From Shigella phage vB_Shig_1KOFFS: 48,622 nucleotides of DNA. The number at the start of each line of letters is the position of its first letter. Positions within the stretch are counted from its first letter, which is position 1. Of this stretch, positions 6,260 to 44,373 are shown in pieces. Below the pieces are notes generated by a model, which searched no databases, was not told the DNA's origin, and worked only from the letters and a program-made list of their open reading frames with translations. Position numbers and translations under genes: made by a program. The stretch is from sequence record PV615260. One strand, 5' to 3'.

Positions 6260-6384
6260 GCCCTTGCTCCTGATTGGTTAATCGTTCGGCTAATCATATG
6301 CCGTATTAAATCCGAGATCCAGTGATAATCTAAACACGCTTGAAAAACGCGCTTGGATTATCGGGGCGCACGGCCCCGAACCAG

Positions 6385-7970: not shown

Positions 7971-8193
7971 ACTTTACACGCCCCAATGAACATTCTTTTC
8001 GATTCCAGCGTCAGCGTGACGCCATCCAGGGAGGACTGAATGAGGCGACTGCCAGGAACCGTCCCGATGATGTAGCGGCCTTTCGACTTCGTGATCGTGA
8101 TCTGAGTGAAGCCGGAGGCGCGTTTCATGCGGAGAACGACGCGGCCATGCGCGTTCAGGACGGAGAGAATGTAATCAGTCTTCGGATGGTTCA
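7967..8193 (-). CDS. hypothetical protein (about 75 aa)
   Basis: ATG at 8193 preceded by AAGGAG; ORF-track N-terminal extension lacks an RBS. Confidence 0.45.
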
Positions 8194-8265
8194 TTGTGTA
8201 GCTCCTTCGTTTGTTGGTGTGGGACAGTATGCCACTATCCAGCCATGTTGTTTTAGCAAAACGTG

Positions 8266-8643
8266 CTATGCCGGAACGCAGGTCGCGTAATCTTGGCTGA
8301 TGTAGATCGTGCGCTGAACGCGAGGTTCGAGATCTCCGAGTTCCTGGATGGTAACATCGTTGCTTCCTACCCGGCACGGAACCGATCCAAAGATAAACTC
8401 GCTAGTCTGCTTGTCGTTGATTTGCCATACATTACCGCCTTCCTTTTTGACAACCAGGAAAGGCGCACTGTCTGCACTGAACTCTTCCGGGCCACGACCG
8501 TAGTAATGCGTGATCGCAGCTTTGGCCGCAGCGCTGAAGGCATCGGTAACGTCATTGGTCGCCTTGTCGCGGATGGCCTTGATACGTTCTTCAGGCGATC
8601 CGATGATGTAGGAAAAGCTGTTCGAAATGGTAACTGTTCGCAT
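8266..8643 (-). CDS. hypothetical protein (125 aa)
   Basis: ORF with RBS GAGGT before ATG at 8643. Confidence 0.5.
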   Translation of the reverse strand: MRTVTISNSFSYIIGSPEERIKAIRDKATNDVTDAFSAAAKAAITHYYGRGPEEFSADSAPFLVVKKEGGNVWQINDKQTSEFIFGSVPCRVGSNDVTIQELGDLEPRVQRTIYISQDYATCVPA

Positions 8644-8882
8644 TATATTTTAACCTCGTTTTGGTGGATGAAGTCGGCGACGTAATGGCATTCGATCGGA
8701 TTCTCGATACCCGCCAGCACCTCGCACAACCCGTTATTCAGTAGCTGGCAATGCTGGCACTCCGCGCCGCCAACACTGGCAATGACAATGGCGATCCCGT
8801 TGCATGAACCGCCGAACATTCGATGAGGGAAGGGGTAAGCATCGCAGGTGCAAACCACCTCCCCGGCTCGCAGTTTCCTCAT
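8643..8882 (-). CDS. Cys-rich small protein (79 aa), possible zinc-binding
   Basis: Seven cysteines including CTC and CQHC clusters; ATG at 8882 overlaps upstream stop. Confidence 0.45.
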   Translation of the reverse strand: MRKLRAGEVVCTCDAYPFPHRMFGGSCNGIAIVIASVGGAECQHCQLLNNGLCEVLAGIENPIECHYVADFIHQNEVKI

Positions 8883-9073
8883 ACCTGACCCTTCTCGATG
8901 CAGAAAACCCAATCACGAGCGTCAACCGCAAAGCGTGCAACGCCGTCGAGCACCACGAAGACAGTAAACCAGTTGACGCCGCGACCCTTCTCGATATCGG
9001 TTACGGTACGGAACAGATCGCTTGCGCCATATTGAATTTTATCCCCGACGACTACATCCGCAAATGCTTTCAT
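8879..9073 (-). CDS. hypothetical protein (64 aa)
   Basis: ORF directly downstream of a regulatory cassette, RBS AGGAG. Confidence 0.5.
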   Translation of the reverse strand: MKAFADVVVGDKIQYGASDLFRTVTDIEKGRGVNWFTVFVVLDGVARFAVDARDWVFCIEKGQV

Positions 9074-9148
9074 GGTTAATCTCCTGACTGGTTTCGATGG
9101 GGTAACTATACCAGGCCTTTCGGCCCGGCGTTTAGCAATTCGTGCTTA
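9074..9148 (-). promoter_or_regulatory. Conserved promoter-like cassette (copy on - strand)
   Basis: Reverse complement reads TAAGCACGAATTGCTAAACG, hairpin ccgggccgaaaggcctgg, extended -10-like TGGTATAGT, then CCCCATCGAAAC. Confidence 0.5.
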
Positions 9149-9427
9149 TTTCACTGCTTTCTTCGCTGCCTTGTACGCCTCTTTGAAAGCCGGAACATCT
9201 TCGACCGGAATCCAGAAGCCGGAGCCATAGCCATCATCGTAGCAGGGGCATTGGTCGCAGTAGTCGCCCCAGGTTTTCTCTTCGCCGCCAACAGAGAAGC
9301 CAGTGGCCATTTCGCATAACGCCTCCTCAACCGCCTCGATCTTGTCGGCGTCGCTATCCATGATAACGAAGTTCCACTTGCCGTTATACTCGCTGCCAAG
9401 GTTGATTGATTCGCGTTGAAGTTTCAT
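9146..9427 (-). CDS. acidic small protein (93 aa), first gene of leftward operon
   Basis: Asp/Glu-rich composition with CDQCPC cluster. Confidence 0.5.
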   Translation of the reverse strand: MKLQRESINLGSEYNGKWNFVIMDSDADKIEAVEEALCEMATGFSVGGEEKTWGDYCDQCPCYDDGYGSGFWIPVEDVPAFKEAYKAAKKAVK

Positions 9428-9785
9428 AGCTTTAGACCCTTTGGCTCAATTCGTTTCGTTGAAGTCATCATAGCAAAGTCGATCGGGTGGCTTTTGACAA
9501 AAAATGCTATTCCTGCGATTGCTGATTATTCCACCGATTCGGAATAGTGGAATAGATGGTGATTGCACCTGATTCCCTGGTGATTAGTTTTGACGAATCA
9601 TGATTGCTTTTGATTGTTTCATTTTGCGCAATGACTTGGTGGAGTGTTTCATGATTTGCAACGAATTGCATAAATGTATGCACCATGCACGCAATTTGCC
9701 GATCGAAGCTGGCAGAACTGGAGTTGTGTTTCACCAACATTTACGCCGTGTGGGAGTGTGGGGGAGGGATAATCTTACCTAAAAA

Positions 9786-9897
9786 TTGCGCAAAAAGCGA
9801 CCAATATAAGCCCATATATAGATAGTAAGTATATGATAAATAATAATATTATTATTATTACTCTCTATCTTTATATATGTTTGGTAAGATTTCTCAG
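9786..9897. repeat. Inverted repeat copy A (about 110 bp, 47-bp AT-rich core at 9818-9864)
   Basis: Reverse-complement match to 42604-42715; the core atagatagtaagtatatgataaataa(t/c)aatattattattattactct differs at one position. Confidence 0.85.
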
Positions 9898-10014
9898 GGG
9901 AGGTTATGGATTCCTCTTGCGCAAGCCATAATTTTTAGATGTTCCGCCGCGAAAAAATGTATATATGGATATATGGGGGATGACAGCAAATCTTCCCAAA
10001 CACGCGCAAATCCT

Positions 10015-10043
10015 TTGACACCAAGGCTTGCGGCCAGTATTAT
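10015..10043 (+). promoter_or_regulatory. Sigma70 consensus-like promoter for the rightward early operon
   Basis: TTGACA at 10015-10020, 17-bp spacer, TATTAT at 10038-10043, about 50 bp upstream of ATG 10091. Confidence 0.6.
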
Positions 10044-10090
10044 CACCTTCCGAAACATTACCAAACGCCGTAAGTGTGGGGGAAACACAA

Positions 10091-10669
10091 ATGCAATACA
10101 AAGGCTATGAGTTCGAAGAAGTCGATGTGTCCGAGTGGATGCAGTACGACGCAGAAAAGCAGGCCGCGTACCATGAATGGCTGCAATCCATCACGTTTGG
10201 TGACACCACCAGGCCAGCAGGGCGGAGCCAGGAAGCCACTAAACCTGAAGGCACATTCACTGGCAACCGCTCTTCCGAGATCCGGCGCATGTTCCTGGAT
10301 GGCGGGCGGCGTATCCAGATGACGGCGGAGGAGTTCGCGGAGAAGTTCGGCGTTCATCCGGTCGACAACCATTTCCGCAGGCCGTTGCTGAAACTCCTGG
10401 AGCCGGGCGAGGTGTTGCGCGTGAGCCTGGGGGCGGGGTTAATCTCCGTCTTTACCGAGTTCGACGCAATGACTAGCTCAAACCTGGAGGTTGAGGCATA
10501 CAGGCGGCAGGGCGCTACCTCTGAGCGGGAAAGGATTAAGGGTTTAGTGGCCGCTCTTGCCGTAGACTTTGCCGGGGATGCTCTGGCCGGGATTTACAAG
10601 GCGAACTTGTTCGCGGCTATCGATCTTGGGTTGACCGCCAGCGATATCAGCCAGCACGGCAAGCAATAG
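10091..10669 (+). CDS. hypothetical early protein (192 aa)
   Basis: ATG at 10091 preceded by GGGGGA; ORF-track extension to 10028 would overlap the promoter. Confidence 0.55.
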   Translation: MQYKGYEFEEVDVSEWMQYDAEKQAAYHEWLQSITFGDTTRPAGRSQEATKPEGTFTGNRSSEIRRMFLDGGRRIQMTAEEFAEKFGVHPVDNHFRRPLLKLLEPGEVLRVSLGAGLISVFTEFDAMTSSNLEVEAYRRQGATSERERIKGLVAALAVDFAGDALAGIYKANLFAAIDLGLTASDISQHGKQ

Positions 10670-10741
10670 CACTTTTTGTTAAAACGCGATCGGGGTGGCT
10701 TGCTATAGTAACCCCATCGAAACGAACAACGGAGCACCACA
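10667..10741 (+). promoter_or_regulatory. Conserved promoter-like cassette
   Basis: TAGCACTTTTTGTTAAAAC, hairpin GGGGTggcttgctatagtaACCCC containing TGcTATAGT, then CCCCATCGAAAC and RBS GGAG. Confidence 0.55.
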
Positions 10742-11236
10742 ATGAAATCTCGCGAATACCTAAACACCCTTAATGGCCTTATCTACTGGCTGGAAGATGA
10801 CGCAGTGATGATGCGCAAGCGCGAAGGCAATATTGTGAAGAAGTCGAATATGGCAGCGGCGATCTTCTTTGCGATGGTCGGCAACGATACACTTCTGCTT
10901 GTCGAGGCGGAGCCGGAGCAAAAGAGCATGACCATGAACGAATTCTCTAACTTCCTGGCTGGCATCGACAAGAGCACCACGACTGCAACCGCACAGACGG
11001 CCATTCAGGGCGGAGCCACCCACATTGCCATCGACGGTAACGGCGACGTCTTCGCATTCAAGATGCGCCCGCGCCCCTGCCTGCCGGATGACGACGACGC
11101 GAATGACTACCTGGGCGAATGGCTTCGCGGGTCTGAGCAGTACGGCCACATTGCGCGAACAGTCTGCTTCCTTGGCAACACTGGCCGCGAGCACCGCAAC
11201 TGGCTGGAACTCTGCTTCCAGATCCCACAGCAATAG
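10742..11236 (+). CDS. hypothetical early protein (164 aa)
   Basis: ORF downstream of cassette; contains an acidic DDDDAND stretch. Confidence 0.55.
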   Translation: MKSREYLNTLNGLIYWLEDDAVMMRKREGNIVKKSNMAAAIFFAMVGNDTLLLVEAEPEQKSMTMNEFSNFLAGIDKSTTTATAQTAIQGGATHIAIDGNGDVFAFKMRPRPCLPDDDDANDYLGEWLRGSEQYGHIARTVCFLGNTGREHRNWLELCFQIPQQ

Positions 11237-11304
11237 CACTTTTTGCTAAAACACGATCGGGGTAACGCGGTATTATTACCCCATCGAAACAGAGGAGCAA
11301 AAAC
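11234..11304 (+). promoter_or_regulatory. Conserved promoter-like cassette
   Basis: TAGCACTTTTTGCTAAAAC, hairpin GGGGTAAcgcggtatTATTACCCC, CCCCATCGAAAC, RBS GAGGAG. Confidence 0.55.
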
Positions 11305-11517
11305 ATGATTGGCAACCACAACAACGAACTGAACGCAGCAGCACACCGTCGCGCAGTCGAGCAGAACTTCAACGCGCTTAAAGCAGCCTGCGATGAGATG
11401 AAAGCAATGCTTGAACTGCCGTCATGGGATCCCCAACTCGAAGACTACTATGACGGCCTCCGCGTCAAGCGTGACGATATCATCAACCGCCTGCGCCTGG
11501 CTGGAATGTTCCTGTAA
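11305..11517 (+). CDS. hypothetical early protein (70 aa)
   Basis: ORF downstream of cassette. Confidence 0.5.
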   Translation: MIGNHNNELNAAAHRRAVEQNFNALKAACDEMKAMLELPSWDPQLEDYYDGLRVKRDDIINRLRLAGMFL

Positions 11518-11527
11518 GGAGAACGCA

Positions 11528-11848
11528 ATGATTCACGAAGTTAAATCCGGCGAGCAAGTAGTGGCCACCATCACGCAGCGCCACGTTGTAGCCTTCCAGA
11601 TTAACATCCCTGGCACGTTCGATATGCAGTCGCTTGACGTGCCAGTTTGGGCCAACACGGTTGCCATTGATGCCGACGGCTCGATTTGGGCCTATGAGTC
11701 GACCGTTGAAAATGTTCGCCTGCTGAGTTACTCGCCTGATTCATGGGTGGATAAGGGGCCGGGCGGAAACAAAATGGTTCAGGTGGGCGAAATGGCTCGT
11801 TTCCCTGATTGGGCAAAATCGAAGATTGACCTTCGCGGCCTGAAATAG
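11528..11848 (+). CDS. hypothetical early protein (106 aa)
   Basis: ATG at 11528 preceded by GGAG. Confidence 0.5.
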   Translation: MIHEVKSGEQVVATITQRHVVAFQINIPGTFDMQSLDVPVWANTVAIDADGSIWAYESTVENVRLLSYSPDSWVDKGPGGNKMVQVGEMARFPDWAKSKIDLRGLK

Positions 11849-11934
11849 CACGCATTGCTAAACGCCAGGTCAGTGGATCGGGCATAATTATCACGAAGTC
11901 GATTAACGACCAAATTATGCAAGGAGACAGGATA
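11845..11934 (+). promoter_or_regulatory. Conserved promoter-like cassette
   Basis: TAGCACGCATTGCTAAAC, 22 bp, CATAAT, then RBS AGGAG before ATG 11935. Confidence 0.5.
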
Positions 11935-12192
11935 ATGCAGCAATTCAAATCTCGCGGCAGGGTATACAGCCTGCCAGATACCGCAACTCATGCCGCGCCA
12001 GGCGTATGCGTCGGCCTTTACTTCATGGATTGCGGCAAATGGTTCTTCATTGGCGACCTGGTGACGGATGATGTTAAGCCGCTACTTTGCGGCAAACATC
12101 GCGGATTCTTCGATCACGATATCGTGGAGCTGAAGCCGAAGCGCAATCCGTTTGGTTTCTGGAACAAAATCAAAGTGGCGATTTTCAAATGA
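11935..12192 (+). CDS. hypothetical early protein (85 aa)
   Basis: ATG at 11935 with RBS AAGGAG. Confidence 0.5.
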   Translation: MQQFKSRGRVYSLPDTATHAAPGVCVGLYFMDCGKWFFIGDLVTDDVKPLLCGKHRGFFDHDIVELKPKRNPFGFWNKIKVAIFK

Positions 12193-12386
12193 ACCAATTC
12201 GAATTCCTGGCGCGGGCGCACCGTGCGCTTGCAATGTACGCCTTCAGCAAGAACATGAAGATTATCAGTATTGAGGTTGAGTTCAACAATATCAGCATTT
12301 CCGGCTATGTTGGCGGCTCGTACCACGTTACAAAATTCAGCTTCCCATCGCTGGCCAGCCTGGAGCGTGAGGCGCTCGGTTTCTGA
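12189..12386 (+). CDS. hypothetical early protein (65 aa)
   Basis: ATG overlaps upstream stop. Confidence 0.45.
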   Translation: MNQFEFLARAHRALAMYAFSKNMKIISIEVEFNNISISGYVGGSYHVTKFSFPSLASLEREALGF

Positions 12387-12459
12387 ATAGCACTTTTTGC
12401 TAAACGCCCGGTCAGGAGATCGGGCATAATGGCCATACACCAAACAACGGAGATTAACC
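12387..12459 (+). promoter_or_regulatory. Conserved promoter-like cassette
   Basis: TAGCACTTTTTGCTAAAC directly after stop TGA, 22 bp, CATAAT, RBS GGAG. Confidence 0.5.
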
Positions 12460-12786
12460 ATGATTCGCACTACCAGGCCGCTACCCAATAACCTTTACGC
12501 CACGATTGGGATTCGCGCGGTGATACTGATTCACGTCAACGAAGTTGGCAACGTGGCTGTTTTGTGGTTTGAGCGCCACTCAAGCGGGGTTGGCCTGAGC
12601 ATTGAAAGAGTCGGGCGCTTTGACGGCAGATCACGAACTCATTCTCATTGGGTTGATGGCTCCTGCTGCTGGACGCACGTTAAGCACGCCGAGAACTTCG
12701 ACGCCAAATCACTGAGCGACGACGACGCCTGGAAGATGGTAACAGATCTCTTTGGTTATGATTCCTGCATGGAGGTAGTAGGATGA
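12460..12786 (+). CDS. hypothetical early protein (108 aa)
   Basis: ORF downstream of cassette. Confidence 0.5.
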   Translation: MIRTTRPLPNNLYATIGIRAVILIHVNEVGNVAVLWFERHSSGVGLSIERVGRFDGRSRTHSHWVDGSCCWTHVKHAENFDAKSLSDDDAWKMVTDLFGYDSCMEVVG

Positions 12787-13085
12787 TACGTTTATCAGAC
12801 TTCGATCGCCACTGCTTAACCGGGCAATTTGGCGAAAAGCCAGTGATGTGCAAGATCTCGAAGGTTAAGGGCGACCCCGTCGAGAAGGTCAATACGCTTA
12901 AAGGCCTGGCAATGCGCAACCGACTTTACATCCAGGTTCGCGGCGGACTGTTCGCAATGCAGGTTCATTTTTCGCATGGGACGTGGTTCTACACTGGCGG
13001 AGACGGGGTTGGCCCATCGCCGAAAAGGGTTATGCTGCGTGAGATAATCGAACGCGGCTACGTTTGGACTAACGGGATCTACTAA
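12783..13085 (+). CDS. hypothetical early protein (100 aa)
   Basis: RBS GGAGG; start overlaps upstream stop. Confidence 0.5.
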   Translation: MIRLSDFDRHCLTGQFGEKPVMCKISKVKGDPVEKVNTLKGLAMRNRLYIQVRGGLFAMQVHFSHGTWFYTGGDGVGPSPKRVMLREIIERGYVWTNGIY

Positions 13086-13330
13086 TGGAAACAGTAACAG
13101 TGATTTGCACCCATGCGGGTTACGGGCCACTTATTCCGCTGTTCACGGTGGGTAAGGAGTATCAAGCCAGGTTCGGCCCCGGCCTTGATGAAGTCTGGAT
13201 TTTGCAGGACGACAAGAAAACAACGGAGTTGGGAGAAAACTGGTTAGCGTGCCGTATGCCGGACGAAAAGATAGCGATGTTTCTTAACAGACCATATGAA
13301 AACAACGTTATATTTGAGGTGAAAGTATGA
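13085..13330 (+). CDS. hypothetical early protein (81 aa)
   Basis: ATG overlaps upstream stop (TAATG). Confidence 0.5.
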   Translation: METVTVICTHAGYGPLIPLFTVGKEYQARFGPGLDEVWILQDDKKTTELGENWLACRMPDEKIAMFLNRPYENNVIFEVKV

Positions 13331-13512
13331 AAGTAAGCAAAAAGAAACTCGCGCTGTATTGGGCCTTCTTCTTGGTTGGCCTGGCGCTGCATGATAATGT
13401 AGACTGGCATCCGGTCGGCATGATTTGCATCATCATCGGGTTATGCCGACTGTCAGAGATTGACGGGTTCCGCCGTGGATATAGGGCAGCGTTCAGCGGC
13501 GAAAAAAAATAG
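13327..13512 (+). CDS. small membrane protein (61 aa)
   Basis: Two hydrophobic segments (LALYWAFFLVGLAL and VGMICIIIGL). Confidence 0.45.
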   Translation: MKVSKKKLALYWAFFLVGLALHDNVDWHPVGMICIIIGLCRLSEIDGFRRGYRAAFSGEKK

Positions 13513-13591
13513 CACTTTTTGTTAAAACTGCCGTAACGTCATTTGATAAAGTGGCGTTACTGAAGTGAACAATCCAATCAGGAGCAACGCA
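13510..13591 (+). promoter_or_regulatory. Conserved promoter-like cassette (variant hairpin)
   Basis: TAGCACTTTTTGTTAAAAC, hairpin CGTAACG..CGTTAC, TGATAAAGT, RBS AGGAG. Confidence 0.45.
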
Positions 13592-13810
13592 ATGAACGAC
13601 AATTTAATCGCACTGCTGGAAGAACTGAATTCCTACGGCTGTGCATACATCGAGCTTTCGAGCGAGCAGGTTATTGAAGTCGCAATCGACGATGACGCCG
13701 GGTTCACCAGATTAAGGGTGGCGGCAGGGGCCGAAGAGGAATTCGAGGACTGCGGCATCCGTGAAGTAACTAACCTTCTCGAAGTTCACCAGGTGAAGGA
13801 GATCCGCTAA
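13592..13810 (+). CDS. hypothetical early protein (72 aa)
   Basis: ATG at 13592 after RBS CAGGAG. Confidence 0.5.
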   Translation: MNDNLIALLEELNSYGCAYIELSSEQVIEVAIDDDAGFTRLRVAAGAEEEFEDCGIREVTNLLEVHQVKEIR

Positions 13811-14298
13811 TGAACACCGTCAAACTTATGGTTGTCAACGTGGCCCGCGAACGTGAACGCCACCTTATCGGCTGCGTATTCGATGCCGTCGAGGTTCGCG
13901 ATCCGCTCGGAATGGCTCGCGTAATCAATGGCGGATACCTTAACGAATTCATCATCAACCCGCTTGATACTGACGAAGACTTGACCATCCGTGTTGGTGG
14001 CGAGCCGGAAAACGCGCTTTTCCACCTGCGGAAAGTATCGAAGGCGTCGCAGCGCAAGTTGCTGGTTCGCGCACTGAAGCGCATTGCGAAGGAGCGCGGT
14101 TACACCGACGCATACATCCGCAAGTTCGGCACGTTCGCTGGCGTCGGAGATTGGGCGCGATCCTGGGCCGACTTATACTTCGATAAATCCGGCAAATTCT
14201 GTTCCGCGCATACGGACTGGCTGCATGGAACCGAACACGATCCAGTTAGCGGCCACGAGTGGTACGAATTCATTGAGGATGGATTAGACGCCCTTTGA
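13810..14298 (+). CDS. hypothetical early protein (162 aa)
   Basis: ORF whose start overlaps upstream stop. Confidence 0.55.
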   Translation: MNTVKLMVVNVARERERHLIGCVFDAVEVRDPLGMARVINGGYLNEFIINPLDTDEDLTIRVGGEPENALFHLRKVSKASQRKLLVRALKRIAKERGYTDAYIRKFGTFAGVGDWARSWADLYFDKSGKFCSAHTDWLHGTEHDPVSGHEWYEFIEDGLDAL

Positions 14299-14373
14299 TA
14301 GCACGAATTGCTAAAACGAACGTCCGGGGATGGTGCATACTATCCCCACACCAACGAACAAAGGAACTCACAC
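14299..14373 (+). promoter_or_regulatory. Conserved promoter-like cassette
   Basis: TAGCACGAATTGCTAAAAC, hairpin GGGGAtggtgcatactATCCCC, RBS AAGGAA. Confidence 0.5.
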
Positions 14374-14976
14374 ATGAAAAGTCAGAAAATTACCCTGATC
14401 CCGTCCGTCGATTCCGTGGTTAATACTTACGCGAAATTCACCAAAGGCAAGCGCTATACCGCAACCGCATTTACCAAATGTTCAGGCGAAATGCTGTACA
14501 AGGTCAGCGATGACTACGGGCGCGAGTATCACGTAAACCCAATATCTTCGCAATATCTTGGTGGCCATCGCTTCGATATCGAGTATCCGATCGAGGATTG
14601 CAGCAAGCGCGAGTCGCTCACCATCAACGCGGCAACCATCGGGGACGGGTTCATTAGCCGTGCCTGCATCGTTGACCTGATCCCGTCCGACAATCACGCC
14701 AAAGACGACGCCGACCCGCTGTTAAAGGCAGTTGTTCGCGCCGGAATCGGCTGGGCGTTAAGTGATGCGTCGTGCGAATCATTCATGCGTGAACCGTTCT
14801 CACGAATCGCGGAGCTTGAAAAGCAGGTTGCGTTCCTGACTGGTGAACTTCAGGCGGCTATCGCCACGATCGAGAAGGTTCGGGAAATCATGCGCACCGA
14901 ACCTGGCTATGACGTTGAAGATCACGCGCGAGTTTTGCGCATGATGGCCGACGCCTTCGCAAAACTCCAGCAATAG
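14374..14976 (+). CDS. hypothetical early protein (200 aa)
   Basis: ATG at 14374; C-terminal region looks coiled-coil-like (ELEKQVAFLTGELQAAIATIEKVREIM). Confidence 0.55.
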   Translation: MKSQKITLIPSVDSVVNTYAKFTKGKRYTATAFTKCSGEMLYKVSDDYGREYHVNPISSQYLGGHRFDIEYPIEDCSKRESLTINAATIGDGFISRACIVDLIPSDNHAKDDADPLLKAVVRAGIGWALSDASCESFMREPFSRIAELEKQVAFLTGELQAAIATIEKVREIMRTEPGYDVEDHARVLRMMADAFAKLQQ

Positions 14977-15041
14977 CACGAACCACAAACACTAACCGGG
15001 TTTGCTGCATGGCTACCCCGCCAAAGACAAGGAAAAACATC
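14975..15041 (+). promoter_or_regulatory. Degenerate copy of the promoter-like cassette
   Basis: Starts TAGCACGAA and contains GGCTACCCC but lacks the TGCTAAA half. Confidence 0.3.
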
Positions 15042-15233
15042 ATGATTTACGCAATTATTGCCCTGGTGGTTCTTATTCTGGCCCTGTATGCGTGCGGCTG
15101 TTTCCTCATGCGGGCCTTCCTGAAATCTGCGGATTCTACCGACAAAGACGATCTTTATCCTGTGTTGTGCTGGCCATGGATTACACTTTCCTCCGTTGGC
15201 AGCGTGATCATTTCCCGCAATTTTAAATGGTGA
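15042..15233 (+). CDS. small membrane protein (63 aa)
   Basis: N-terminal hydrophobic helix IYAIIALVVLILALYACGCFL; RBS AAGGAAAAA. Confidence 0.5.
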   Translation: MIYAIIALVVLILALYACGCFLMRAFLKSADSTDKDDLYPVLCWPWITLSSVGSVIISRNFKW

Positions 15234-15269
15234 GATGGCGTTTGTGTTCCAAAGTGGATAGCCAGCAAA

Positions 15270-15343
15270 TAGCACGAATTGCTAAAACCGATCAGGGGTA
15301 AGCTGGTATAGTTACCCCATCGAAACGAAACGGAGTTACAGCA
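15270..15343 (+). promoter_or_regulatory. Conserved promoter-like cassette
   Basis: TAGCACGAATTGCTAAAAC, hairpin GGGGTAAgctggtatagTTACCCC with TGgTATAGT, CCCCATCGAAAC, RBS GGAG. Confidence 0.55.
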
Positions 15344-15556
15344 ATGAAAATCAAAATTACCAAAATCGACACTCTTAACGGCGACGGCTCAATTACCCTG
15401 GAAGAATGCGGCCTCAAAATCGGCGAAGTTCTTGAGGTCGACGGCCACTTCAACGACGGCTCCTACTGTGTGATCGCTCCGCGCAATAGCGAGTTTATCC
15501 AGGCTGGTGACAATATCAGCGTGAGCGCAGACGAATGCGAGGTTGTGGAAGAATGA
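15344..15556 (+). CDS. hypothetical early protein (70 aa)
   Basis: ORF downstream of cassette. Confidence 0.5.
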   Translation: MKIKITKIDTLNGDGSITLEECGLKIGEVLEVDGHFNDGSYCVIAPRNSEFIQAGDNISVSADECEVVEE

Positions 15557-16128
15557 GCAACAAAATTTGGGTACTGACCTACACTATCGGAACCAACGAG
15601 GGGCGCAAATCGCGCCGCCTCATCTGCGACACCAAAGAGCAGGCGATTATGCAGCAAACCGTTCTTGGTGGCGAGGTTGTCGAATATTTCCGCAAGCCTG
15701 AAGCGTTCAAGGTGAACTGGCCGGAAGGCATGGATATCAACGGAGCGTTAGCGAGCCTGCGTGAGATGCAGCACAACCCGAAGACGTGGAGCGACTTTCA
15801 ATGCCTGCGTGCGGAGCCGGAAGTGAAGGCCGACCCGTTCACCAATATTCGGGCGCAGCACGCGGAATGGTCGGATCGCCAGTTCGGTAACGTCGGGCCA
15901 GTAGGGCCACTCAAACACCTGGCGAAAGAGGCGATCGAGGCTGCCGAAGCGCCGGATGACATTAGCGAGTTCGCCGATATCCTCATGTTGGTATGGGACG
16001 CAATGCGCCGCGCCGGATTCAGCGATGAGCAGTTGGCTGAAGCGGTGGCGGAAAAGCTGGAACGGAACAAGCGTCGGGCGTGGGGTGAGGTCAAAGATGG
16101 CGAACCTTGCCACCACGTAAAAAATTAA
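15553..16128 (+). CDS. MazG-like nucleotide pyrophosphohydrolase domain protein (tentative)
   Basis: Glu/Asp-rich helical segment KEAIEAAEAPDDISEFADILMLVWDAMRRAG resembles the MazG EExxE/D metal-binding helices; from memory only. Confidence 0.4.
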   Translation: MSNKIWVLTYTIGTNEGRKSRRLICDTKEQAIMQQTVLGGEVVEYFRKPEAFKVNWPEGMDINGALASLREMQHNPKTWSDFQCLRAEPEVKADPFTNIRAQHAEWSDRQFGNVGPVGPLKHLAKEAIEAAEAPDDISEFADILMLVWDAMRRAGFSDEQLAEAVAEKLERNKRRAWGEVKDGEPCHHVKN

Positions 16129-16197
16129 CGAAATCTAATACCGTTTAAAGCGCCTGTAAGCCATTCTGGCGGGCGCAAATTTAAGGAGTGCGATTGT

Positions 16198-16434
16198 ATG
16201 CCTGAATACTCAAAAGTCGAAGATATGCCGATTGGCGCAACCATTACGGGAATTCGCATTGATGAATGGGTAGATGCCATCACCCCACTGGCGTTTCCGG
16301 TTACGCAGGTGGAGACTGACAGCGAAAAAGGGTTTATCTTCATCTACAAAAACCTCAATAGTCCGCTGCGTGTTGAAGTGTTCATTGCTCGCGGAACCTG
16401 GGTAGAATGGGAGAAGGCCAAATGTTCGGACTGA
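16198..16434 (+). CDS. hypothetical early protein (78 aa)
   Basis: ORF with RBS AAGGAG. Confidence 0.5.
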   Translation: MPEYSKVEDMPIGATITGIRIDEWVDAITPLAFPVTQVETDSEKGFIFIYKNLNSPLRVEVFIARGTWVEWEKAKCSD

Positions 16435-16655
16435 ATGAAGCGCAGTACAACGCCGTGAAGCGCATAGCAAAGCAGATGGCCGCAGAAACAAAAGACGCCA
16501 TCAAGAAGGACAAGAAGACCTACGATCAGGTCGCCGCGAAGATGATCGATAAACATTGGGCGCAAATCAACACGCTGGTTACTCGCGGCCAGTTTATCTG
16601 GATAGCTGGCTACCTGGAAGGCCGATTCGGTCGCAGGGATGGCGAGTATGAATAA
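16422..16655 (+). CDS. hypothetical early protein (77 aa)
   Basis: ATG at 16422 overlapping the end of the upstream gene. Confidence 0.45.
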   Translation: MFGLNEAQYNAVKRIAKQMAAETKDAIKKDKKTYDQVAAKMIDKHWAQINTLVTRGQFIWIAGYLEGRFGRRDGEYE

Positions 16656-16783
16656 AAAACAGCCAAACGATTCAGTGACCTATTGACGCAATCGCGCTGA
16701 CCGTGTAACGTGAACCACGTAGACGCAAGAGGCGGTAAACATCCGCAAGTCTGGCCCCGCTTAGGGGCATTTACAAAGGGGTT

Positions 16784-16978
16784 ATGATGCAGTACAAAAT
16801 CATACTCACGGCAAGAAAAATGGGCGGCTTTTGCAAGTCCTGCATTCAAGAGTTCAGCATGACGATTGAGGCGAACGACGCCGCCGACGCGGTAGAGAAA
16901 GCAAAAAAGCAATCCGGCGTTAATCTGGATACTCATAAAATCAACATCAACTACATAAGGGAAGTCAATCAATGTTAA
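16784..16978 (+). CDS. hypothetical protein (64 aa)
   Basis: ORF with RBS AAGGGG. Confidence 0.4.
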   Translation: MMQYKIILTARKMGGFCKSCIQEFSMTIEANDAADAVEKAKKQSGVNLDTHKININYIREVNQC

Positions 16979-17235
16979 CTCTGATTATTGCACTGTTAAT
17001 GCTGTTCATAGGCTATCATGTTGGCGCGGCTCATCTTGTCGAGCGCCTTTCAAAGCGGGTACATGAAGGCACCTTTGCTGCCATGTTCTACAATAAGAAA
17101 ACAGCACGTTGGGAAAAAATTGGCGATCCGGATGGTATCGCAAAACGAATTGCTTTTTCGCCGCTTCCGTATGTTGACTGCGAGCCATTTGTTAAACTCC
17201 AGAAGACGCTGAATCGGCGAAACAAACTGATATGA
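16972..17235 (+). CDS. hypothetical membrane protein (87 aa)
   Basis: N-terminal hydrophobic helix LTLIIALLMLFIGYHVGAA. Confidence 0.45.
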   Translation: MLTLIIALLMLFIGYHVGAAHLVERLSKRVHEGTFAAMFYNKKTARWEKIGDPDGIAKRIAFSPLPYVDCEPFVKLQKTLNRRNKLI

Positions 17236-17242
17236 CAAAAGA

Positions 17243-17267
17243 ACCCGCTTCGGCGGGTTTTTTTATG
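17243..17267 (+). terminator. Rho-independent terminator ending the early operon
   Basis: Stem AACCCGC / GCGGGTT with loop ttcg, followed by T7. Confidence 0.8.
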
Positions 17268-17314: not shown

Positions 17315-17839
17315 ATGTCTGAAGAACGTAGAAAACGCGTAACGAAATCGCACTTTGCAGGCAACTTTAAAGCGCTATATGAAAAGGAGTTCGGCGTGGT
17401 ACTAGGGCGCACGGCAGAGATGACGCCGGAACAATTTTTTGATATCGCAAAGCGTTACTTCCAGTGGGCCGAAGATAACGCAATCAAGGCTGCGGAAACG
17501 GCAACGTTTCAGGGAGACGTTAACGAGTGGGGAGTGAACAAGCCGCGCATTTTTACTCTCACAGGGTTAAGCCTGTTTTGCGGCGTGAACCAGTCAACGC
17601 TTGGGCGCTACCGTCACGATCCCAACTATGCTCCCGTCATGGAGTTCATCGACTCCGTAATTTATGAGCAGAAATTTCAGCTTGCTGCCGTCGGCATGAT
17701 TAACGCTTCTTTCGTCGGAAAAGAGATGGGGATCGATAAGCCGCCAGTGCTTAACATCGACGCTATCGCCGGGGATAAGAACGAGATCACCGAGGAGAAG
17801 TTAGAGAAGGCAGTGACCAATATTCTTGATAAGCTGTAA
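17315..17839 (+). CDS. Terminase small subunit
   Basis: 174-aa ORF immediately upstream of the large terminase, first gene after the early terminator; RBS AAGGAGGG. Confidence 0.6.
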   Translation: MSEERRKRVTKSHFAGNFKALYEKEFGVVLGRTAEMTPEQFFDIAKRYFQWAEDNAIKAAETATFQGDVNEWGVNKPRIFTLTGLSLFCGVNQSTLGRYRHDPNYAPVMEFIDSVIYEQKFQLAAVGMINASFVGKEMGIDKPPVLNIDAIAGDKNEITEEKLEKAVTNILDKL

Positions 17840-17848
17840 GGGTCAACT

Positions 17849-19450
17849 ATGAACGAAATGATCATTTGGGAAGACTTATCGCCAGCCGATAAGCTGGCAA
17901 TTAAGGCGCTGAGTACGCGCAACTTTTCGCTGTTCCTGAAGATCTGGTTCCAGATTATCCAGGGCGAAAAGCTGATGTGGAACTGGCATCACTCTTACTT
18001 TTGCCACACGGTTGATGAAATTATCGCCGGGAAGCGCAAAAGCACGATCGTTAACGTTGCGCCAGGCTCAACAAAGACGGAGGCGTTTTCAATCCACCTC
18101 GCGCCGTATGCGTATCTGAAATGCCGGAAGGTTCGAAACCTTCAGATCTCGCAGGGTGACGCCCTGTCAAAAGGCAACTCGGATCGCGTGATTAAGATCT
18201 TCTCATCGAGCGAGTGGCAGGAGCTATGGCCATCAAGGTTCGGGCGCAAGCAGATCGATGAATTTCAGGTGATGGATGATAACGACCGCGTAAGGCTGGA
18301 AATGGTTTCCCGTTCGTCTGGCGGTCAGATTGTCGGTAAGCGTGGCGGGTACATGACGCCAGGGTTTAGCGGCCTTATCGCGCTGGATGATATCGACAAG
18401 CCGGATGATATGTTCTCGAAGGTGAAGCGTGAGAAAAACCACGTTCTGCTGAAGAACACCATTCGATCCCGTCGAGCGAAGAAGAAGAAGGGCGACGAAA
18501 CGCCAATCCTTTCCGTGCAGCAGAGATTGCACGCACAGGATTCGACCTGGTTCATGATGAGCGGAGGCATGGCGATTGACTTCAATCGAATTGTTATCCC
18601 GGCGATGGTAACGCGAGAATATGGCGAATCGCTTCCTGACTGGTTGCGACCTGAGTTCGAACGCGACGTGCTTTCCGGCCCGTCGGTGGTCATTGACGGC
18701 GTAGAATACTGGTCATTTTGGGAGGACAACGAATCGATCGAGAACCTGGTTGCCTTGCGCGAGGCCGATCTTTATACGTTCCTTTCGCAGTATCAGCAGG
18801 AGCCAATCGCCCTGGGTGGAAACGTGTTCAAGTCGGAGTGGTGGCGCTATTACGGCGATTCCGACAAGGCGCACGAGCCGCGCCCGGACAAGTTCGAATA
18901 TACGTTCATCACGGCGGACACCGCGCAGAAGGTCAAGGAGCTAAACGACTACTCTGTAATGTGCTATTGGGGCAAGTATCGGGATCGCGTCTACTTCATT
19001 GACGGAATTCGCGGAAAATGGGAAGCGCCAGATCTCCGCGTTCAGGCCGAAGCATTCATCAAGCAGTGCTGGCGTCGGAACAAGGAGTGCGGAAACCTTC
19101 GCCGGATCTACATCGAAGACAAGGCGAGCGGTACAGGTCTAATCCAGGATTTAACGAAGGCTGTAAACGGCATGGGCGAGATCGTCCCGGTGCAGCGCGA
19201 TAAAGATAAGGTCACTCGCGCTATGGATGCACAACCAATCATCAAGGGTGGGCGTGTCGTGCTGCCTGACAATCACCCATTCGTTGCAGAGCTTGAGGCG
19301 GAGATGAGCGCGTTTACATATGACGATTCTCATCCACACGATGATATTTGCGACAACGTGTTTGACGCCGCAAACCTGGAAATGAACCTGAGCGACGATC
19401 CGGTTGAGCGAATGAAACGCCTTGCGGGATTGAAAAAGCTGGGTCGCTAA
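17849..19450 (+). CDS. Terminase large subunit
   Basis: 533-aa ORF between small terminase and portal; acidic nuclease-like C-terminal half. Confidence 0.8.
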   Translation: MNEMIIWEDLSPADKLAIKALSTRNFSLFLKIWFQIIQGEKLMWNWHHSYFCHTVDEIIAGKRKSTIVNVAPGSTKTEAFSIHLAPYAYLKCRKVRNLQISQGDALSKGNSDRVIKIFSSSEWQELWPSRFGRKQIDEFQVMDDNDRVRLEMVSRSSGGQIVGKRGGYMTPGFSGLIALDDIDKPDDMFSKVKREKNHVLLKNTIRSRRAKKKKGDETPILSVQQRLHAQDSTWFMMSGGMAIDFNRIVIPAMVTREYGESLPDWLRPEFERDVLSGPSVVIDGVEYWSFWEDNESIENLVALREADLYTFLSQYQQEPIALGGNVFKSEWWRYYGDSDKAHEPRPDKFEYTFITADTAQKVKELNDYSVMCYWGKYRDRVYFIDGIRGKWEAPDLRVQAEAFIKQCWRRNKECGNLRRIYIEDKASGTGLIQDLTKAVNGMGEIVPVQRDKDKVTRAMDAQPIIKGGRVVLPDNHPFVAELEAEMSAFTYDDSHPHDDICDNVFDAANLEMNLSDDPVERMKRLAGLKKLGR

Positions 19451-19495
19451 TACATAATGTGGGCCTGACGGCCCACACTTAAACAAGGTTGAAAT

Positions 19496-43805: not shown

Positions 43806-43883
43806 GTCGTTACCTCCAAATAAAAAACGCCTACACGAGAATGATAACCCGGCAGGCGTTTAGTGTTTAGACAAATTGTGCTA
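43806..43883 (-). promoter_or_regulatory. Conserved promoter-like cassette (- strand) upstream of primase
   Basis: Reverse complement reads TAGCACAATTTGTCTAAAC, then hairpin and TATCAT-like element, then RBS. Confidence 0.45.
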
Positions 43884-44282
43884 TCGGACTACGCGGAGCA
43901 TTTCCCGGCGGTCGCATCGGCGCGTAACTGGCTTGCCGTTGCTGTCAAACCTTAAATCTGGTCGGCAGAATGAGGCGCGGAAACCTTTGCAATTGTTCCG
44001 GCGGTAGCTCTTGTGTACGAGATAAGCGCCATCGGCTGAGATCATGCCTCGCTTGCGCCACTGCTGAACGACCTGGATGCTAACCCCCAACTCTTTTGCC
44101 GTTCCAGCGATGCCACCGAAGGCATCAATAACAAGCTCCATCCGCGCAGTCAACCCGGCGCGAACCTCATCCTTCAGTACGTAGTAACCAGTCGGGCGTT
44201 TGCGCTTCTTCTTGTCCTTTCCGCGAGATGTTCCATTGTTGCCGTTCAAAGTTCGCTTGTCTACCTTTGCCATTTGTTCCAT
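43881..44282 (-). CDS. HTH DNA-binding protein (Cro/YdaS-like), candidate transcription regulator
   Basis: Segment GTAKELGVSIQVVQQWRKRGMIS resembles Cro/YdaS-type helix-turn-helix; basic N-terminus. Confidence 0.55.
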   Translation of the reverse strand: MEQMAKVDKRTLNGNNGTSRGKDKKKRKRPTGYYVLKDEVRAGLTARMELVIDAFGGIAGTAKELGVSIQVVQQWRKRGMISADGAYLVHKSYRRNNCKGFRASFCRPDLRFDSNGKPVTRRCDRREMLRVVR

Positions 44283-44295: not shown

Positions 44296-44373
44296 TAGCA
44301 CTTTTTGTTAAACATGATAAAATATGCTATGTATTATACACGCAACCATGCTAATGACAAATTAGGATTGCAC
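44296..44373 (+). promoter_or_regulatory. Conserved promoter-like cassette
   Basis: TAGCACTTTTTGTTAAAC followed about 22 bp later by TATTAT, with an extended -10-like TGATAAAAT nearer the box. Confidence 0.45.

What the first reader, a model, noticed from the sequence alone, without database searches (positions are those of the whole stretch)
10091..17235. Early operon of about 20 small coupled ORFs with almost no recognisable domains
Most genes here are 60-200 aa, many with overlapping start/stop codons and several membrane-associated; only one (MazG-like) has a tentative assignment. This is where host-takeover and anti-defence proteins are usually encoded and is the largest pool of potentially novel functions in the window.
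Basis: inference. Interest (0 to 1): 0.45.

Follow-up and report, generated by a model that had tools for sequence, protein, structure and literature searches.

The report
Phage early genes with modular promoters
This is the ordinary, fast-evolving block of small unknown early genes of a T1-like Klebsiella phage, but it is a chain of mini-units rather than one operon, each unit headed by a repeated promoter/stem-loop cassette whose function the field lists as an open question.

Summary
Window 10091-17235 holds 20 same-strand genes of 61-200 aa. Eight of the 19 junctions overlap, three products have hydrophobic segments, and only g16 (PF04447, MazG-like) passes a Pfam cut-off. The window is a Webervirus (T1-like). 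The block corresponds to T1 ORF77-55, lying between the pac end and terS, and over 400 sequenced phages annotate it as hypothetical proteins.

"Operon" is not supported. g1 has a near-consensus sigma70 promoter. Seven internal gaps carry a family-wide cassette: a 21-nt box (aATAGCAC-N3-TTGYTAAAA, containing the palindrome TAGCA-N5-TGCTA), a stem-loop, and a -10 hexamer exactly 22 nt after TTGYTA, often with an extended -10 G. A strong terminator closes the block.

The box was reported in phage TLS in 2024 with its function unknown. New here:
- the fixed -10 (63 of 83 sites in four genera);
- the palindrome centred at about -42;
- the near-universal stem-loop (61 of 63);
- a box-to-box deletion relative to the closest relative;
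- a conserved Cro-like regulator whose own leader contains a box in 80 of 80 loci.

Most likely the cassettes are portable early promoters read by that regulator, and they also act as recombination joints, like T4 PeSLs. The protein functions remain unknown.

The parts
10015..10043 (+). Canonical sigma70 promoter of g1 (TTGACA-17-TATTAT, 11/12), with no box
10091..10669 (+). g1, 192 aa, acidic. The core (residues 60-125) is predicted a-b-a-a-b-b, winged-helix-like but not significant. Found in Webervirus only
10666..10741 (+). Cassette 1: box 10667-10687, -10 TATAGT 10704-10709 (TGc extended), predicted +1 at about 10716, stem GGGGT/ACCCC enclosing the -10
10742..11236 (+). g2, 164 aa, unknown function; absent from 2 of 8 weberviruses
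11233..11304 (+). Cassette 2: box 11234-11254, -10 TATTAT 11271-11276, stem GGGGTAA/TTACCCC enclosing the -10
11305..11517 (+). g3, 70 aa, two-helix hairpin; the public label 'transcriptional regulator' is unsupported
11528..11848 (+). g4, 106 aa, unknown function
11845..11934 (+). Cassette 3: box 11846-11866, -10 CATAAT 11883-11888
11935..12386 (+). g5 (85 aa, 11935-12192) and g6 (65 aa, 12189-12386), coupled by ATGA
12387..12459 (+). Cassette 4: box 12388-12408, spacer hairpin, -10 CATAAT 12425-12430
12460..13512 (+). g7 (108 aa), g8 (100 aa), g9 (81 aa) and g10 (61 aa, two hydrophobic segments), all translationally coupled
13509..13591 (+). Cassette 5: box 13510-13530, -10 TAAAGT 13547-13552, with a 12-bp stem enclosing it
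13592..14298 (+). g11 (72 aa, very acidic) and g12 (162 aa), coupled
14298..14373 (+). Cassette 6: box 14299-14319, -10 CATACT 14336-14341, stem GGGGATGG/CTATCCCC
14374..14976 (+). g13, 200 aa, a two-part mosaic (PHROG 15124 N-terminal, 21078 C-terminal coiled coil)
14974..15044 (+). Decayed cassette: the first half of the box is kept (TAGCACGAA), the second half and the -10 are lost
15009..15233 (+). g14, a small single-pass membrane protein (probable start 15045)
15269..15343 (+). Cassette 7: box 15270-15290, -10 TATAGT 15307-15312 (TGg extended), stem GGGGTAA/TTACCCC
15344..16128 (+). g15 (70 aa) and g16 (191 aa; C-terminal PF04447 MazG-like dATP/dGTP pyrophosphohydrolase), coupled
16198..16655 (+). 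g17 (78 aa) and g18 (82 aa, PHROG 303). g18 is one of only two genes conserved in T1, TLS and Rtp
16784..17235 (+). g19 (64 aa, conserved in T1, TLS and Rtp) and g20 (87 aa, N-terminal TM helix)
17237..17264 (+). Intrinsic terminator closing the block (12-bp stem, UUCG loop, U7; -16.7 kcal/mol)
   Evidence: Skenny annotates the equivalent
43881..44282 (-). Outside the finding: the conserved Cro-type HTH regulator (T1 gp23 homologue), the proposed reader of the box
44296..44360 (.). Outside the finding: the switch region. Box at 44296-44316 (+). Canonical promoter of the regulator on the - strand (TTGTCA-16-TATAAT, 44360 to 44333). The box lies in the regulator's leader and at -42 of the rightward promoter

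Best explanation
The block is the hypervariable early/accessory arm of a T1-like (Webervirus) virulent phage. It is a chain of short transcription units, not one operon.

Host RNA polymerase first uses the near-consensus sigma70 promoter ahead of g1. The rest of the block is served by seven copies of a portable cassette that begins at the stop codon of the preceding gene. Each cassette consists of: (i) a 21-nt box containing the palindrome TAGCA-N5-TGCTA, centred at about -42; (ii) a variable stem-loop that either encloses the -10 or fills the spacer; (iii) a -10 hexamer exactly 22 nt after TTGYTA, usually with G at -14 (extended -10) and no usable -35; (iv) a C-A start site and a 22-40 nt leader with an SD. 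A strong terminator ends the block before terS.

The same cassette heads the replication, recombination, methylase and nucleotide-kinase genes, so it defines the phage's early regulon.

Inferred: the box is the operator of the family-wide Cro-type regulator (window 43881-44282, minus strand). That regulator is made from its own canonical promoter, has a box in its own leader (autorepression), and most likely helps RNA polymerase at the -35-less box promoters from the class II position.

Partly shown: the cassettes also act as homology patches for gene gain and loss, as PeSLs do in T4-like phages.

Not shown: the 20 proteins are accessory early proteins. Host takeover or counter-defence is the likeliest role, and only g16 has a family assignment.
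For: Identity and layout:
- The region is 98% identical to Klebsiella phage vB_Kpn_1KM2, and 403 phage records match it.
- T1, TLS and Rtp share the arrangement pac end, small-gene block, terminator, terS.

The box:
- 17 matches in the window against 0.68 expected; 0 of 100 shuffles reach 17.
- All convincing copies are intergenic, co-oriented with the downstream gene, and outside the structural module.

The promoter half:
- In four genera, 63 of 83 box sites have an xAxxxT hexamer (at least 4/6 to TATAAT) at offset exactly 22, against 0-8 at any other offset.
- G at -14 occurs in 52 of 63 sites, TG in 30 of 63, and C and A are conserved at -1/+1.

The stem-loop:
- Within-site arm complementarity averages -3.17 kcal/mol against -1.04 for arm-swapped controls (z -13.7).
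- 61 of 63 cassettes have a hairpin.

Promoter and terminator at the ends: canonical promoter before g1 (11/12); terminator -16.7 kcal/mol.

The regulator:
- 53-67% identity across genera with 50 invariant columns.
- Cro/YdaS-type HTH.
- Its own canonical promoter in the window, T1 and TLS.
- A divergent box immediately upstream of its start in 80 of 80 loci.

Recombination:
- The window lacks three genes present in 1KM2, and its single cassette is a chimera with the crossover inside the box.
- Indel junctions fall in cassettes 65 of 221 times against 17.6 expected.

Gene turnover: only g18 and g19 are detectable in T1, TLS and Rtp.
Against: - There are no transcript 5' ends, no binding data and no expression timing for any T1-like phage in the literature I could reach.
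- Box copies descend from one another, so the counts are not independent. Part of the fixed spacing could be inheritance, although the spacer sequences have diverged completely without indels.
- Extended -10 promoters can fire without any activator, so the box-bound protein could equally be a repressor.
- The regulator-box link is guilt by association. Both are universal in the family, so no covariation test was possible.
- Whole-gene indels must end between genes, so the junction enrichment is expected to some degree. Only one clean box-to-box event was dissected.
- The last four genes (g17-g20) have no box cassette.
Confidence: 0.55

Rival explanations
1. The block is a single polycistronic early operon, transcribed from the g1 promoter to the terminator at 17237-17264. 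The repeats are not promoters but RNA-level elements, such as processing or stabilising hairpins or attenuators.
For: All 20 genes are on one strand, 8 of 19 junctions are coupled, and there is one canonical promoter at the start and one strong terminator at the end. Most cassette hairpins lack a good U-tract, so read-through is likely. As RNA, the box itself folds into a 5-bp stem with a 5-nt loop followed by a second hairpin.
Against: A -10 hexamer at one exact offset in 63 of 83 sites, G at -14, and C-A at -1/+1 are promoter features that an RNA element would not need. The box stem never covaries (G3, C4 and A5 are invariant in 63 of 63 sites), which points to sequence-specific rather than structural recognition. 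The same cassette also heads isolated genes on the other strand. Read-through and internal initiation are not mutually exclusive.
Confidence: 0.12
2. The cassettes are constitutive extended -10 promoters, and the box is a 'stoperator'-like operator. The Cro-like protein accumulates and shuts off all early units, including its own gene, to make the early-to-late switch.
For: G-14/TG plus good -10 hexamers could suffice for sigma70 alone. The box lies in the regulator's own leader in 80 of 80 loci, which is a repressive position. The Cro family is classically repressive. The TLS authors themselves suggested stoperators.
Against: A repressor does not need invariant 22-bp spacing to the -10 across four genera while the spacer sequence drifts freely. 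At the switch region, the rightward box promoter lacks a -35 and its -10 overlaps that of the near-consensus regulator promoter, so it should need help to compete.
Confidence: 0.22
3. The box is read by a host factor, or by RNA polymerase itself as a UP-like or displaced -35 element, and no phage protein is involved. One lead: from memory, the E. coli Lrp SELEX consensus YAGHAWATTWTDCTR matches 13 of 15 positions of the TTT-class box.
For: The box is identical in phages of Klebsiella and Escherichia, whose hosts share their global regulators. It contains TTGYTA and an A-tract. The TLS authors suggested a UP-element-like role.
Against: TTGYTA is 22 bp from the -10, outside the range sigma70 tolerates. 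The hexamer at the true -35 position is TAAAAC (2/6). The box is G+C-containing and palindromic, unlike UP elements. The invariant C6 disagrees with the Lrp consensus. A sigma54-like reading fails because the -24/-12 spacing is 2 nt too short and GG is replaced by AG. None of this was tested against host data.
Confidence: 0.08
4. The repeats matter mainly as recombination substrates, integron- or PeSL-like joints for shuffling accessory genes, and their promoter-like features are secondary.
For: There is a box-to-box deletion with the crossover in the box, and junctions are enriched in cassettes. HNH homing-endonuclease genes travel with their own box cassette (window 44296/44374-44886; Rtp 6317 and 21394). 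The phage encodes Erf and ExoVIII.
Against: Recombination alone does not explain the conserved -10, the start site and the SD at fixed distances, or the presence of cassettes ahead of conserved core genes that are never shuffled (helicase, primase, Dam).
Confidence: 0.03

Closest known systems
Left-arm small-gene block of coliphage T1 (ORF77-ORF55) and its equivalents in TLS (gp01-28) and Rtp (rtp1-18)
   Same: The position is the same (pac/terminal-repeat end, then the block, then a terminator, then terS and terL), as are the strand, the gene sizes and the lack of annotation. g18 and g19 have 40-52% identical homologues there.
   Different: 18 of the 20 proteins have no detectable homologue in T1, TLS or Rtp. 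TLS and Rtp carry stp-like and polynucleotide-kinase genes in this arm, whereas here the kinase genes lie elsewhere (window ~1716-2908).
The 21-nt intergenic direct repeats of phage TLS (aaATAGCACnnnTTGnTAAAA; PMC11447400)
   Same: This is the same element. The consensus, the orientation with transcription, the distance of about 76 nt to the start codon and the TTT/GAA/AAA sub-classes all agree.
   Different: The paper treats the repeat as an isolated 21-mer of unknown function (stoperator, enhancer or UP element?) and finds only three sigma70 promoters. Shown here in addition: the -10 hexamer fixed at +22, the extended -10 G, the conserved start site, the embedded stem-loop, the palindrome geometry, the link to the Cro-like regulator, and a recombination event.
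PeSLs (promoter-early stem-loops), the composite terminator/promoter cassettes of T4-like myoviruses (PMC2839356, PMC4122927)
   Same: Both are short repeated intergenic cassettes that combine an early promoter with a stem-loop. Both are concentrated between small unknown ORFs in hyperplastic regions, and both mark indel boundaries through homologous recombination.
   Different: The phage family is unrelated (siphovirus) and there is no sequence similarity. Here the -35 is replaced by a palindromic box 22 bp from the -10, and the stem-loop lies inside the promoter (between the box and +1) rather than beside it. Excised circles were not examined.
Class II activator-dependent promoters (CRP or FNR at -41.5; lambda cI at OR2, -42, for PRM) and phage middle promoters (T4 MotA box)
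   Same: Both have a dimer-sized palindrome centred at about -42 with half-sites one helical turn apart, no functional -35, a good and often extended -10, and strict spacing.
   Different: Activation is inferred and was not measured. The T4 MotA box sits at -30 and needs AsiA. No AsiA- or MotA-like protein was sought or found. The comparison with the lambda and CRP geometry rests on textbook knowledge.
Mycobacteriophage L5 stoperators
   Same: Many copies of one short asymmetric site lie in intergenic regions, oriented with transcription (this was the TLS authors' suggestion).
   Different: L5 is temperate and its repressor maintains lysogeny. Here the sites have fixed promoter geometry, and the phage is virulent.

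Membership tests
T1-like (Drexlerviridae) left-arm early/accessory gene block | Lies between the pac/terminal-repeat end and terS-terL, on the same strand as the terminase genes | tested here: met
   terS is at 17315 and terL at 17849. The T1, TLS and Rtp layouts agree. The Skenny genome start maps to about 10022.
T1-like (Drexlerviridae) left-arm early/accessory gene block | A run of about 18-28 small ORFs, mostly without assigned function, ended by an intrinsic terminator | tested here: met
T1-like (Drexlerviridae) left-arm early/accessory gene block | Expressed early in infection | not testable with these tools
   Only promoter-class arguments are available. No transcriptome was found.
Drexlerviridae 21-nt intergenic repeat (TLS 'DR') | Consensus aaATAGCACnnnTTGnTAAAA | tested here: met
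   Seven exact-core copies lie in the finding. The window has 17 matches at up to 2 mismatches against 0.68 expected.
Drexlerviridae 21-nt intergenic repeat (TLS 'DR') | Intergenic, oriented with transcription, about 76 nt upstream of a start codon | tested here: met
Single operon (one promoter, one terminator, one transcript) | No internal promoters | tested here: not met
   Seven internal cassettes carry a -10 at fixed offset, G-14 and a C-A start. This is sequence-level evidence only.
PeSL-type composite promoter/stem-loop cassette | Repeated intergenic unit combining an early promoter with a stem-loop | tested here: met
   63 of 83 sites have the -10, and 61 of 63 have a hairpin, with mean z -3.2.
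PeSL-type composite promoter/stem-loop cassette | Marks indel boundaries between close relatives through recombination within the repeat | tested here: met
   One clean box-to-box event was found. Junctions are enriched, 65 of 221 against 17.6 expected, though the counts are not independent.
PeSL-type composite promoter/stem-loop cassette | Canonical T4-type early promoter (-35 and -10), and membership of the T4-like phages | tested here: not met
   There is no -35 at 16-18 bp; a box sits at 22 bp instead. The phage is a siphovirus of the Drexlerviridae. It therefore works like a PeSL but is not a member.
Class II activator-dependent promoter | Palindromic site centred near -41.5/-42, overlapping a defective -35 | tested here: met
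   The box spans -49 to -29 relative to the predicted +1, and the -35 position reads TAAAAC.
Class II activator-dependent promoter | Transcription depends on the bound activator | not testable with these tools
   This needs in vitro transcription or reporters.
Cro/YdaS-type HTH regulator (the proposed box reader, window 43881-44282) | HTH domain matching P22_Cro or YdaS | tested here: inconclusive
   Single-sequence scores are below Pfam's cut-offs (21.6 bits against 30.2). However, 18 of 20 family members hit YdaS and 16 of 20 hit P22_Cro, and the profile hits P22 Cro 1rzs at E 0.005.
Cro/YdaS-type HTH regulator (the proposed box reader, window 43881-44282) | Binds the box | not testable with these tools
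   Only co-occurrence and position are available: 80 of 80 loci.
MazG-like all-alpha NTP pyrophosphohydrolase (PF04447) for g16 | HMM match above the gathering score | tested here: met
   117.8 bits against a cut-off of 23, covering residues 99-190.
MazG-like all-alpha NTP pyrophosphohydrolase (PF04447) for g16 | Catalytic metal-binding residues and activity | not tested
   No solved homologue was found by sequence.

The most novel reading that the evidence does not exclude
T1-like phages run a two-tier early programme that has gone unrecognised. Host RNA polymerase first reads a very few canonical promoters (g1 and the Cro-like regulator). The regulator then binds one invariant palindromic box, centred at -42 of about 15-20 -35-less extended -10 promoters per genome, switching on the whole early regulon while repressing itself. 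Because each accessory gene carries this self-contained box/stem-loop/-10/SD cassette, any gene captured between two boxes is at once placed under the phage's early control. That would make the cassette both the regulatory unit and the recombination unit of counter-defence gene exchange across the Drexlerviridae.
Probability: 0.3. Interest if true: 0.6.

Novelty: new variant of a known kind. Interest (0 to 1): 0.4.

Why it matters
The gene block itself is routine. Every T1-like phage has one, and hundreds of weberviruses, which are popular candidates for Klebsiella phage therapy, carry near-identical copies annotated as hypothetical.

The value lies in the regulatory reading. [quoted passage not shown] The analysis here turns that question into a concrete hypothesis that can be tested on the bench: a bipartite promoter with a class II-positioned operator, a named candidate regulator, and a PeSL-like recombination role.

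If it is right, three things follow. It explains why conventional promoter searches find almost no promoters in these phages. It gives a sequence tag that delimits the early/accessory regulon, and so the candidate anti-defence genes, in any Drexlerviridae genome. It also identifies safe junction points for engineering therapeutic weberviruses.

Tried and rejected
- **g1 as the box reader.** Rejected. It is not conserved outside Webervirus (15-23% to the first genes of T1, TLS and Rtp; no tblastn hit). Its winged-helix-like core is not significant (best Foldseek E 0.06).
- **g3 as a transcriptional regulator.** Rejected. See the observation check.
- **g2/g4 paralogy** from a shared 'AID.(N/D)G' motif. 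BLASTP finds nothing.
- **TTGYTA as a -35.** Rejected. The spacing is 22 bp in every copy, and the hexamer at 17 bp is TAAAAC.
- **Sigma54-like reading** (TGGCAC-N5-TTGC). Rejected by inspection. The spacing is 2 nt shorter and GG is replaced by AG.
- **Sigma32-like reading** of ACCCCAT. Rejected. There is no -35 partner, and the motif is the 3' arm of a hairpin present in only a subset of copies.
- **Sequence searches of g1, g2, g12, g13 and g16 against solved structures.** Nothing significant.
- **Rfam and tRNA scans of the window.** Nothing.
- **Covariation test between regulator and box.** Not possible, because both are invariant in all 80 loci recovered.
- **GATC/Dam control of the promoters.** GATC is enriched in the window's spacers (6 of 14) but not in T1 or Rtp, so it is not general.
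- **Box-like hits at 48020(+), 26533(-) and 19071(-).** They lie inside genes and lack a -10, so they are chance or coding constraint.
- **Literature on T1-like expression timing or anti-defence genes.** Nothing usable, and the T1 genome paper is not held.

Full report
**What the window is.** The finding region is 98.2% identical over its full length to Klebsiella phage vB_Kpn_1KM2, and it matches 403 phage records, almost all Klebsiella weberviruses (Drexlerviridae, T1-like). The structural genes downstream match the same phages. The window is a circular permutation of a ~49-kb webervirus genome:
- 1-4156 (+): exonuclease, kinases and lysis genes.
- 4226-9427 (-): helicase, cytosine methylase and small ORFs.
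- 9428-10090: a 660-bp divergent intergenic region.
- 10091-17235 (+): the finding.
- 17315-37165 (+): terS, terL, head and tail genes.
- 37709-43805 (-): fibre, SSB, Erf, ExoVIII and primase.
- 43881-44282 (-): an HTH regulator.
- 44374-48412 (+): HNH, helicase, VRR-NUC and Dam.

**Checking the observation.** Twenty + strand genes of 61-200 aa fill 10091-17235, and the annotated records of close relatives call the same genes. Eight of the 19 junctions overlap. g14 and g20 have clear TM helices, and g10 has two short hydrophobic stretches. Pfam gives a single hit above its cut-off, g16 = PF04447, a MazG-like dATP/dGTP pyrophosphohydrolase. All 20 fall in PHROGs, 19 of them of unknown function.

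The only other public label is g3, 'transcriptional regulator'. I tested it and do not support it. g3 has no Pfam hit, its family is confined to weberviruses, and a confident model (pLDDT 87) is a two-helix hairpin with no significant or DNA-binding structural match. Sequence searches of g1, g2, g12, g13 and g16 against solved structures found nothing.

g1 gave a moderate model (pLDDT 62). Its well-predicted core (residues 60-125) has winged-helix topology, but the best Foldseek E-value is 0.06, so this is only a hint.

**What the block corresponds to.** T1 has the same arrangement: a terminal repeat/pac end, 23 small + strand genes (ORF77 to ORF55), a terminator, then terS and terL. TLS and Rtp are alike. 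Only g18 and g19 have detectable homologues in those three phages (40-52% identity). The other 18 genes are genus-specific, and even among eight weberviruses genes come and go. This is the well-known but uncharacterised hypervariable arm of T1-like phages. TLS and Rtp carry an stp-like gene and polynucleotide kinase in this arm. That is a precedent for counter-defence functions, but nothing of the kind was identified here.

**Not one operon.** While reading spurious minus-strand ORFs I saw the same peptide recurring in the intergenic gaps, which led to a repeated DNA element. The core TAGCAC-N3-TTGYTAAA occurs 17 times in the window at up to 2 mismatches, against 0.68 expected, and 0 of 100 shuffles reach 17.

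Seven copies lie in the finding, in seven of the nine gaps of 68 nt or more. An eighth, between g13 and g14, is decayed. The other convincing copies precede non-structural genes on the appropriate strand. None lies in the structural module, apart from hits inside genes that lack the rest of the architecture.

The element usually starts at the stop codon of the upstream gene (...AA-TAG-CAC...). A near-consensus sigma70 promoter (TTGACA-17-TATTAT) precedes g1, and it has no box. A strong terminator (-16.7 kcal/mol, U7) follows g20.

**What was already known.** The 2024 re-annotation of TLS (PMC11447400) reports 18 intergenic 21-nt repeats, aaATAGCACnnnTTGnTAAAA, oriented with transcription and about 76 nt upstream of start codons. 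It notes similar repeats in T1, Rtp and Rogue1 and finds only three sigma70-like promoters. It suggests stoperators, enhancer sites or UP elements, and it lists the function of the repeat as an open question for the field. I found no paper that takes this further.

**What the comparison adds.** I collected all box matches in the window, T1, TLS and Rtp, which gave 83 sites in four genera.
1. 63 of the 83 sites have a -10-like hexamer (xAxxxT, at least 4/6 to TATAAT) exactly 22 nt after TTGYTA. Any other offset scores 0-8.
2. G is found two bases before the hexamer in 52 of 63 sites, and TG in 30 of 63. This is the extended -10 motif, which in E. coli compensates for a missing -35 (established knowledge).
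3. C and A are conserved where -1/+1 should fall, followed by a 22-40 nt leader and an SD.
4. The box therefore spans about -49 to -29. Its perfect palindrome TAGCA-N5-TGCTA, with half-sites 10 bp apart, is centred at -42. The hexamer at the true -35 position is TAAAAC.
5. The spacer sequences are unrelated between copies, yet the spacing never changes.
6. The sequence before the hexamer is complementary to the sequence after it within each site but not between sites (mean -3.17 against -1.04 kcal/mol for swapped arms, z -13.7). Folded without constraints, 61 of 63 cassettes have a hairpin between the box and +11. In 39 it encloses the -10, and in 22 it fills the spacer. Several of the latter are annotated as terminators in the T1 record.

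The unit is thus a composite of box, stem-loop, extended -10 and leader. This explains why searches for TTGACA-N15-19-TATAAT find almost no promoters in these phages.

**Who reads the box.** An invariant site implies a conserved reader. The first-gene products of the four phages are not conserved (15-23%), and g3 is genus-specific. The T1 gp23-like protein (window 43881-44282, minus strand) is 53-67% identical across the four genera, with 50 invariant columns.

A 20-member profile of this protein matches phage Cro proteins in the PDB (P22 Cro 1rzs, E 0.005). 18 of 20 members hit Pfam YdaS and 16 of 20 hit P22_Cro, although each single score is below the curated cut-off. A dimeric Cro-type HTH fits a 5+5 palindrome spaced one helical turn apart.

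Its gene has its own near-consensus promoter without a box: TTGTCA-16-TATAAT in the window, and 10/12 matches in T1 and TLS. A box lies in the regulator's leader, roughly +14 to +30. The same box sits at -42 of the divergent rightward promoter, whose -10 overlaps that of the regulator promoter. A divergent box immediately upstream of the regulator's start codon is present in 80 of 80 IMG/VR loci, with regulator identity from 56 to 100%.

I infer autorepression plus action on all box promoters. The invariant spacing and the missing -35 favour activation from the class II position. Repression (a stoperator-like early shut-off) is the main rival. None of this is shown experimentally.

**Cassettes as recombination joints.** The window lacks three genes that 1KM2 carries between g1 and g2. 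The window's single cassette has 1KM2's 'after g1' sequence to the left of the box and 1KM2's 'before g2' cassette to the right (one mismatch between the box and the start codon), so the crossover lies inside the shared box.

Across nine weberviruses, alignment breakpoints fall in cassettes 65 of 221 times against 17.6 expected. These counts are not independent, and whole-gene indels must end between genes in any case. HNH homing-endonuclease genes carry their own box cassette, both here (44296/44374-44886) and in Rtp. This is the behaviour described for PeSLs, the composite terminator/promoter cassettes of T4-like phages (PMC2839356, PMC4122927). The resemblance is functional, not a matter of family membership.

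**Verdict.** The finding is real and accurately described, but the gene block is ordinary for this phage family and is already present, unannotated, in hundreds of records. The 'operon' reading should be replaced by a chain of cassette-driven units. 'Early' is likely but unproven, and 'host takeover / anti-defence' remains a reasonable guess with no direct support.

The added value is a specific, testable mechanism for a repeat that the field has flagged as unexplained. Weak points are the absence of transcript or binding data, the non-independence of the repeat copies, and the associative nature of the regulator-box link.

Noticed in passing
window 9428-10090: This 660-bp AT-rich divergent intergenic region has nested inverted repeats. 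There are 50-nt arms at 9719-9768 and 10046-10095 (74% complementary), the second covering g1's leader and start codon. There is also a perfect palindrome AATAATAATA-T-TATTATTATT at 9839-9859. By analogy with T1 the pac site should lie near 9550-9590, and the Skenny record starts at about 10022. It may be a pac site, an origin, or both.
   Followed up: partly
window 44374-44886 (+): An HNH_3 homing endonuclease (E 3e-23) with a weak AP2-like tail is inserted between the regulator and the helicase, behind its own box cassette (44296). Skenny lacks it. In Rtp, the HNH genes rtp20 and rtp40 inside the structural module also each carry a box cassette (L006 6317 and 21394).
   Followed up: partly
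window promoter spacers (e.g. 10691, 11258, 11879, 12421, 15293; 9480 on the - strand): GATC occurs in 6 of the 14 box-promoter spacers of this phage, against about 1.6 expected. The phage encodes Dam. The enrichment is not seen in T1 (1 of 16) or Rtp (1 of 17).
   Followed up: partly
window 42433-42466 and 42696-42729: A 34-nt direct repeat (TTGGTCAAAAAATGAGCGAAATTTACGTAAGATT, 85% identical) lies in the gap upstream of the ExoVIII gene on the minus-strand side. It is unrelated to the box and unexplained.
   Followed up: no
window 48020-48036 (+); L004 39345; L005 39003: A box-like sequence (AAGCAC-N3-TGGYTAAA) sits inside the Dam methylase gene at the same place in the window, T1 and TLS. It lacks a -10 and is probably conserved as coding sequence. 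It shows that box matches inside genes can be false positives.
   Followed up: partly
window 10667, 11234, 11846, 13510, 14974, 47324; 7280, 8268, 43883 on the - strand: The box supplies the stop codon (TAG) of the upstream gene in most copies, and it also closes a second reading frame (TAA at box positions 14-16). A gene recombined in at a box is therefore terminated in two of three frames.
   Followed up: partly
window 14374-14976 (g13): g13 is a mosaic. Residues 1-121 and 98-200 belong to different PHROGs. In Skenny, RAD2 and N141 the matching gene is much shorter (~107 aa) and only about 65% of g13 aligns, which suggests domain-level shuffling inside the block.
   Followed up: partly
window 24329-24353, 27881-27905, 33116-33137: A family of near-identical GC-stem/T-run terminators (AAAAGCGCCTTCGGGCGCTTTTTT) punctuates the structural module, in line with the 'transcripton' organisation described for T1 late genes.
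   Followed up: no
L005 1865-1945 (TLS gp05) and L006 2432-2524 (Rtp6): The equivalent arm of TLS and Rtp encodes an Stp-like peptide (annotated as activator of the host PrrC anticodon nuclease) next to polynucleotide kinase. These are the only functionally suggestive counter-defence genes seen in this arm in any relative. No homologue was seen among the 20 genes here.
   Followed up: no
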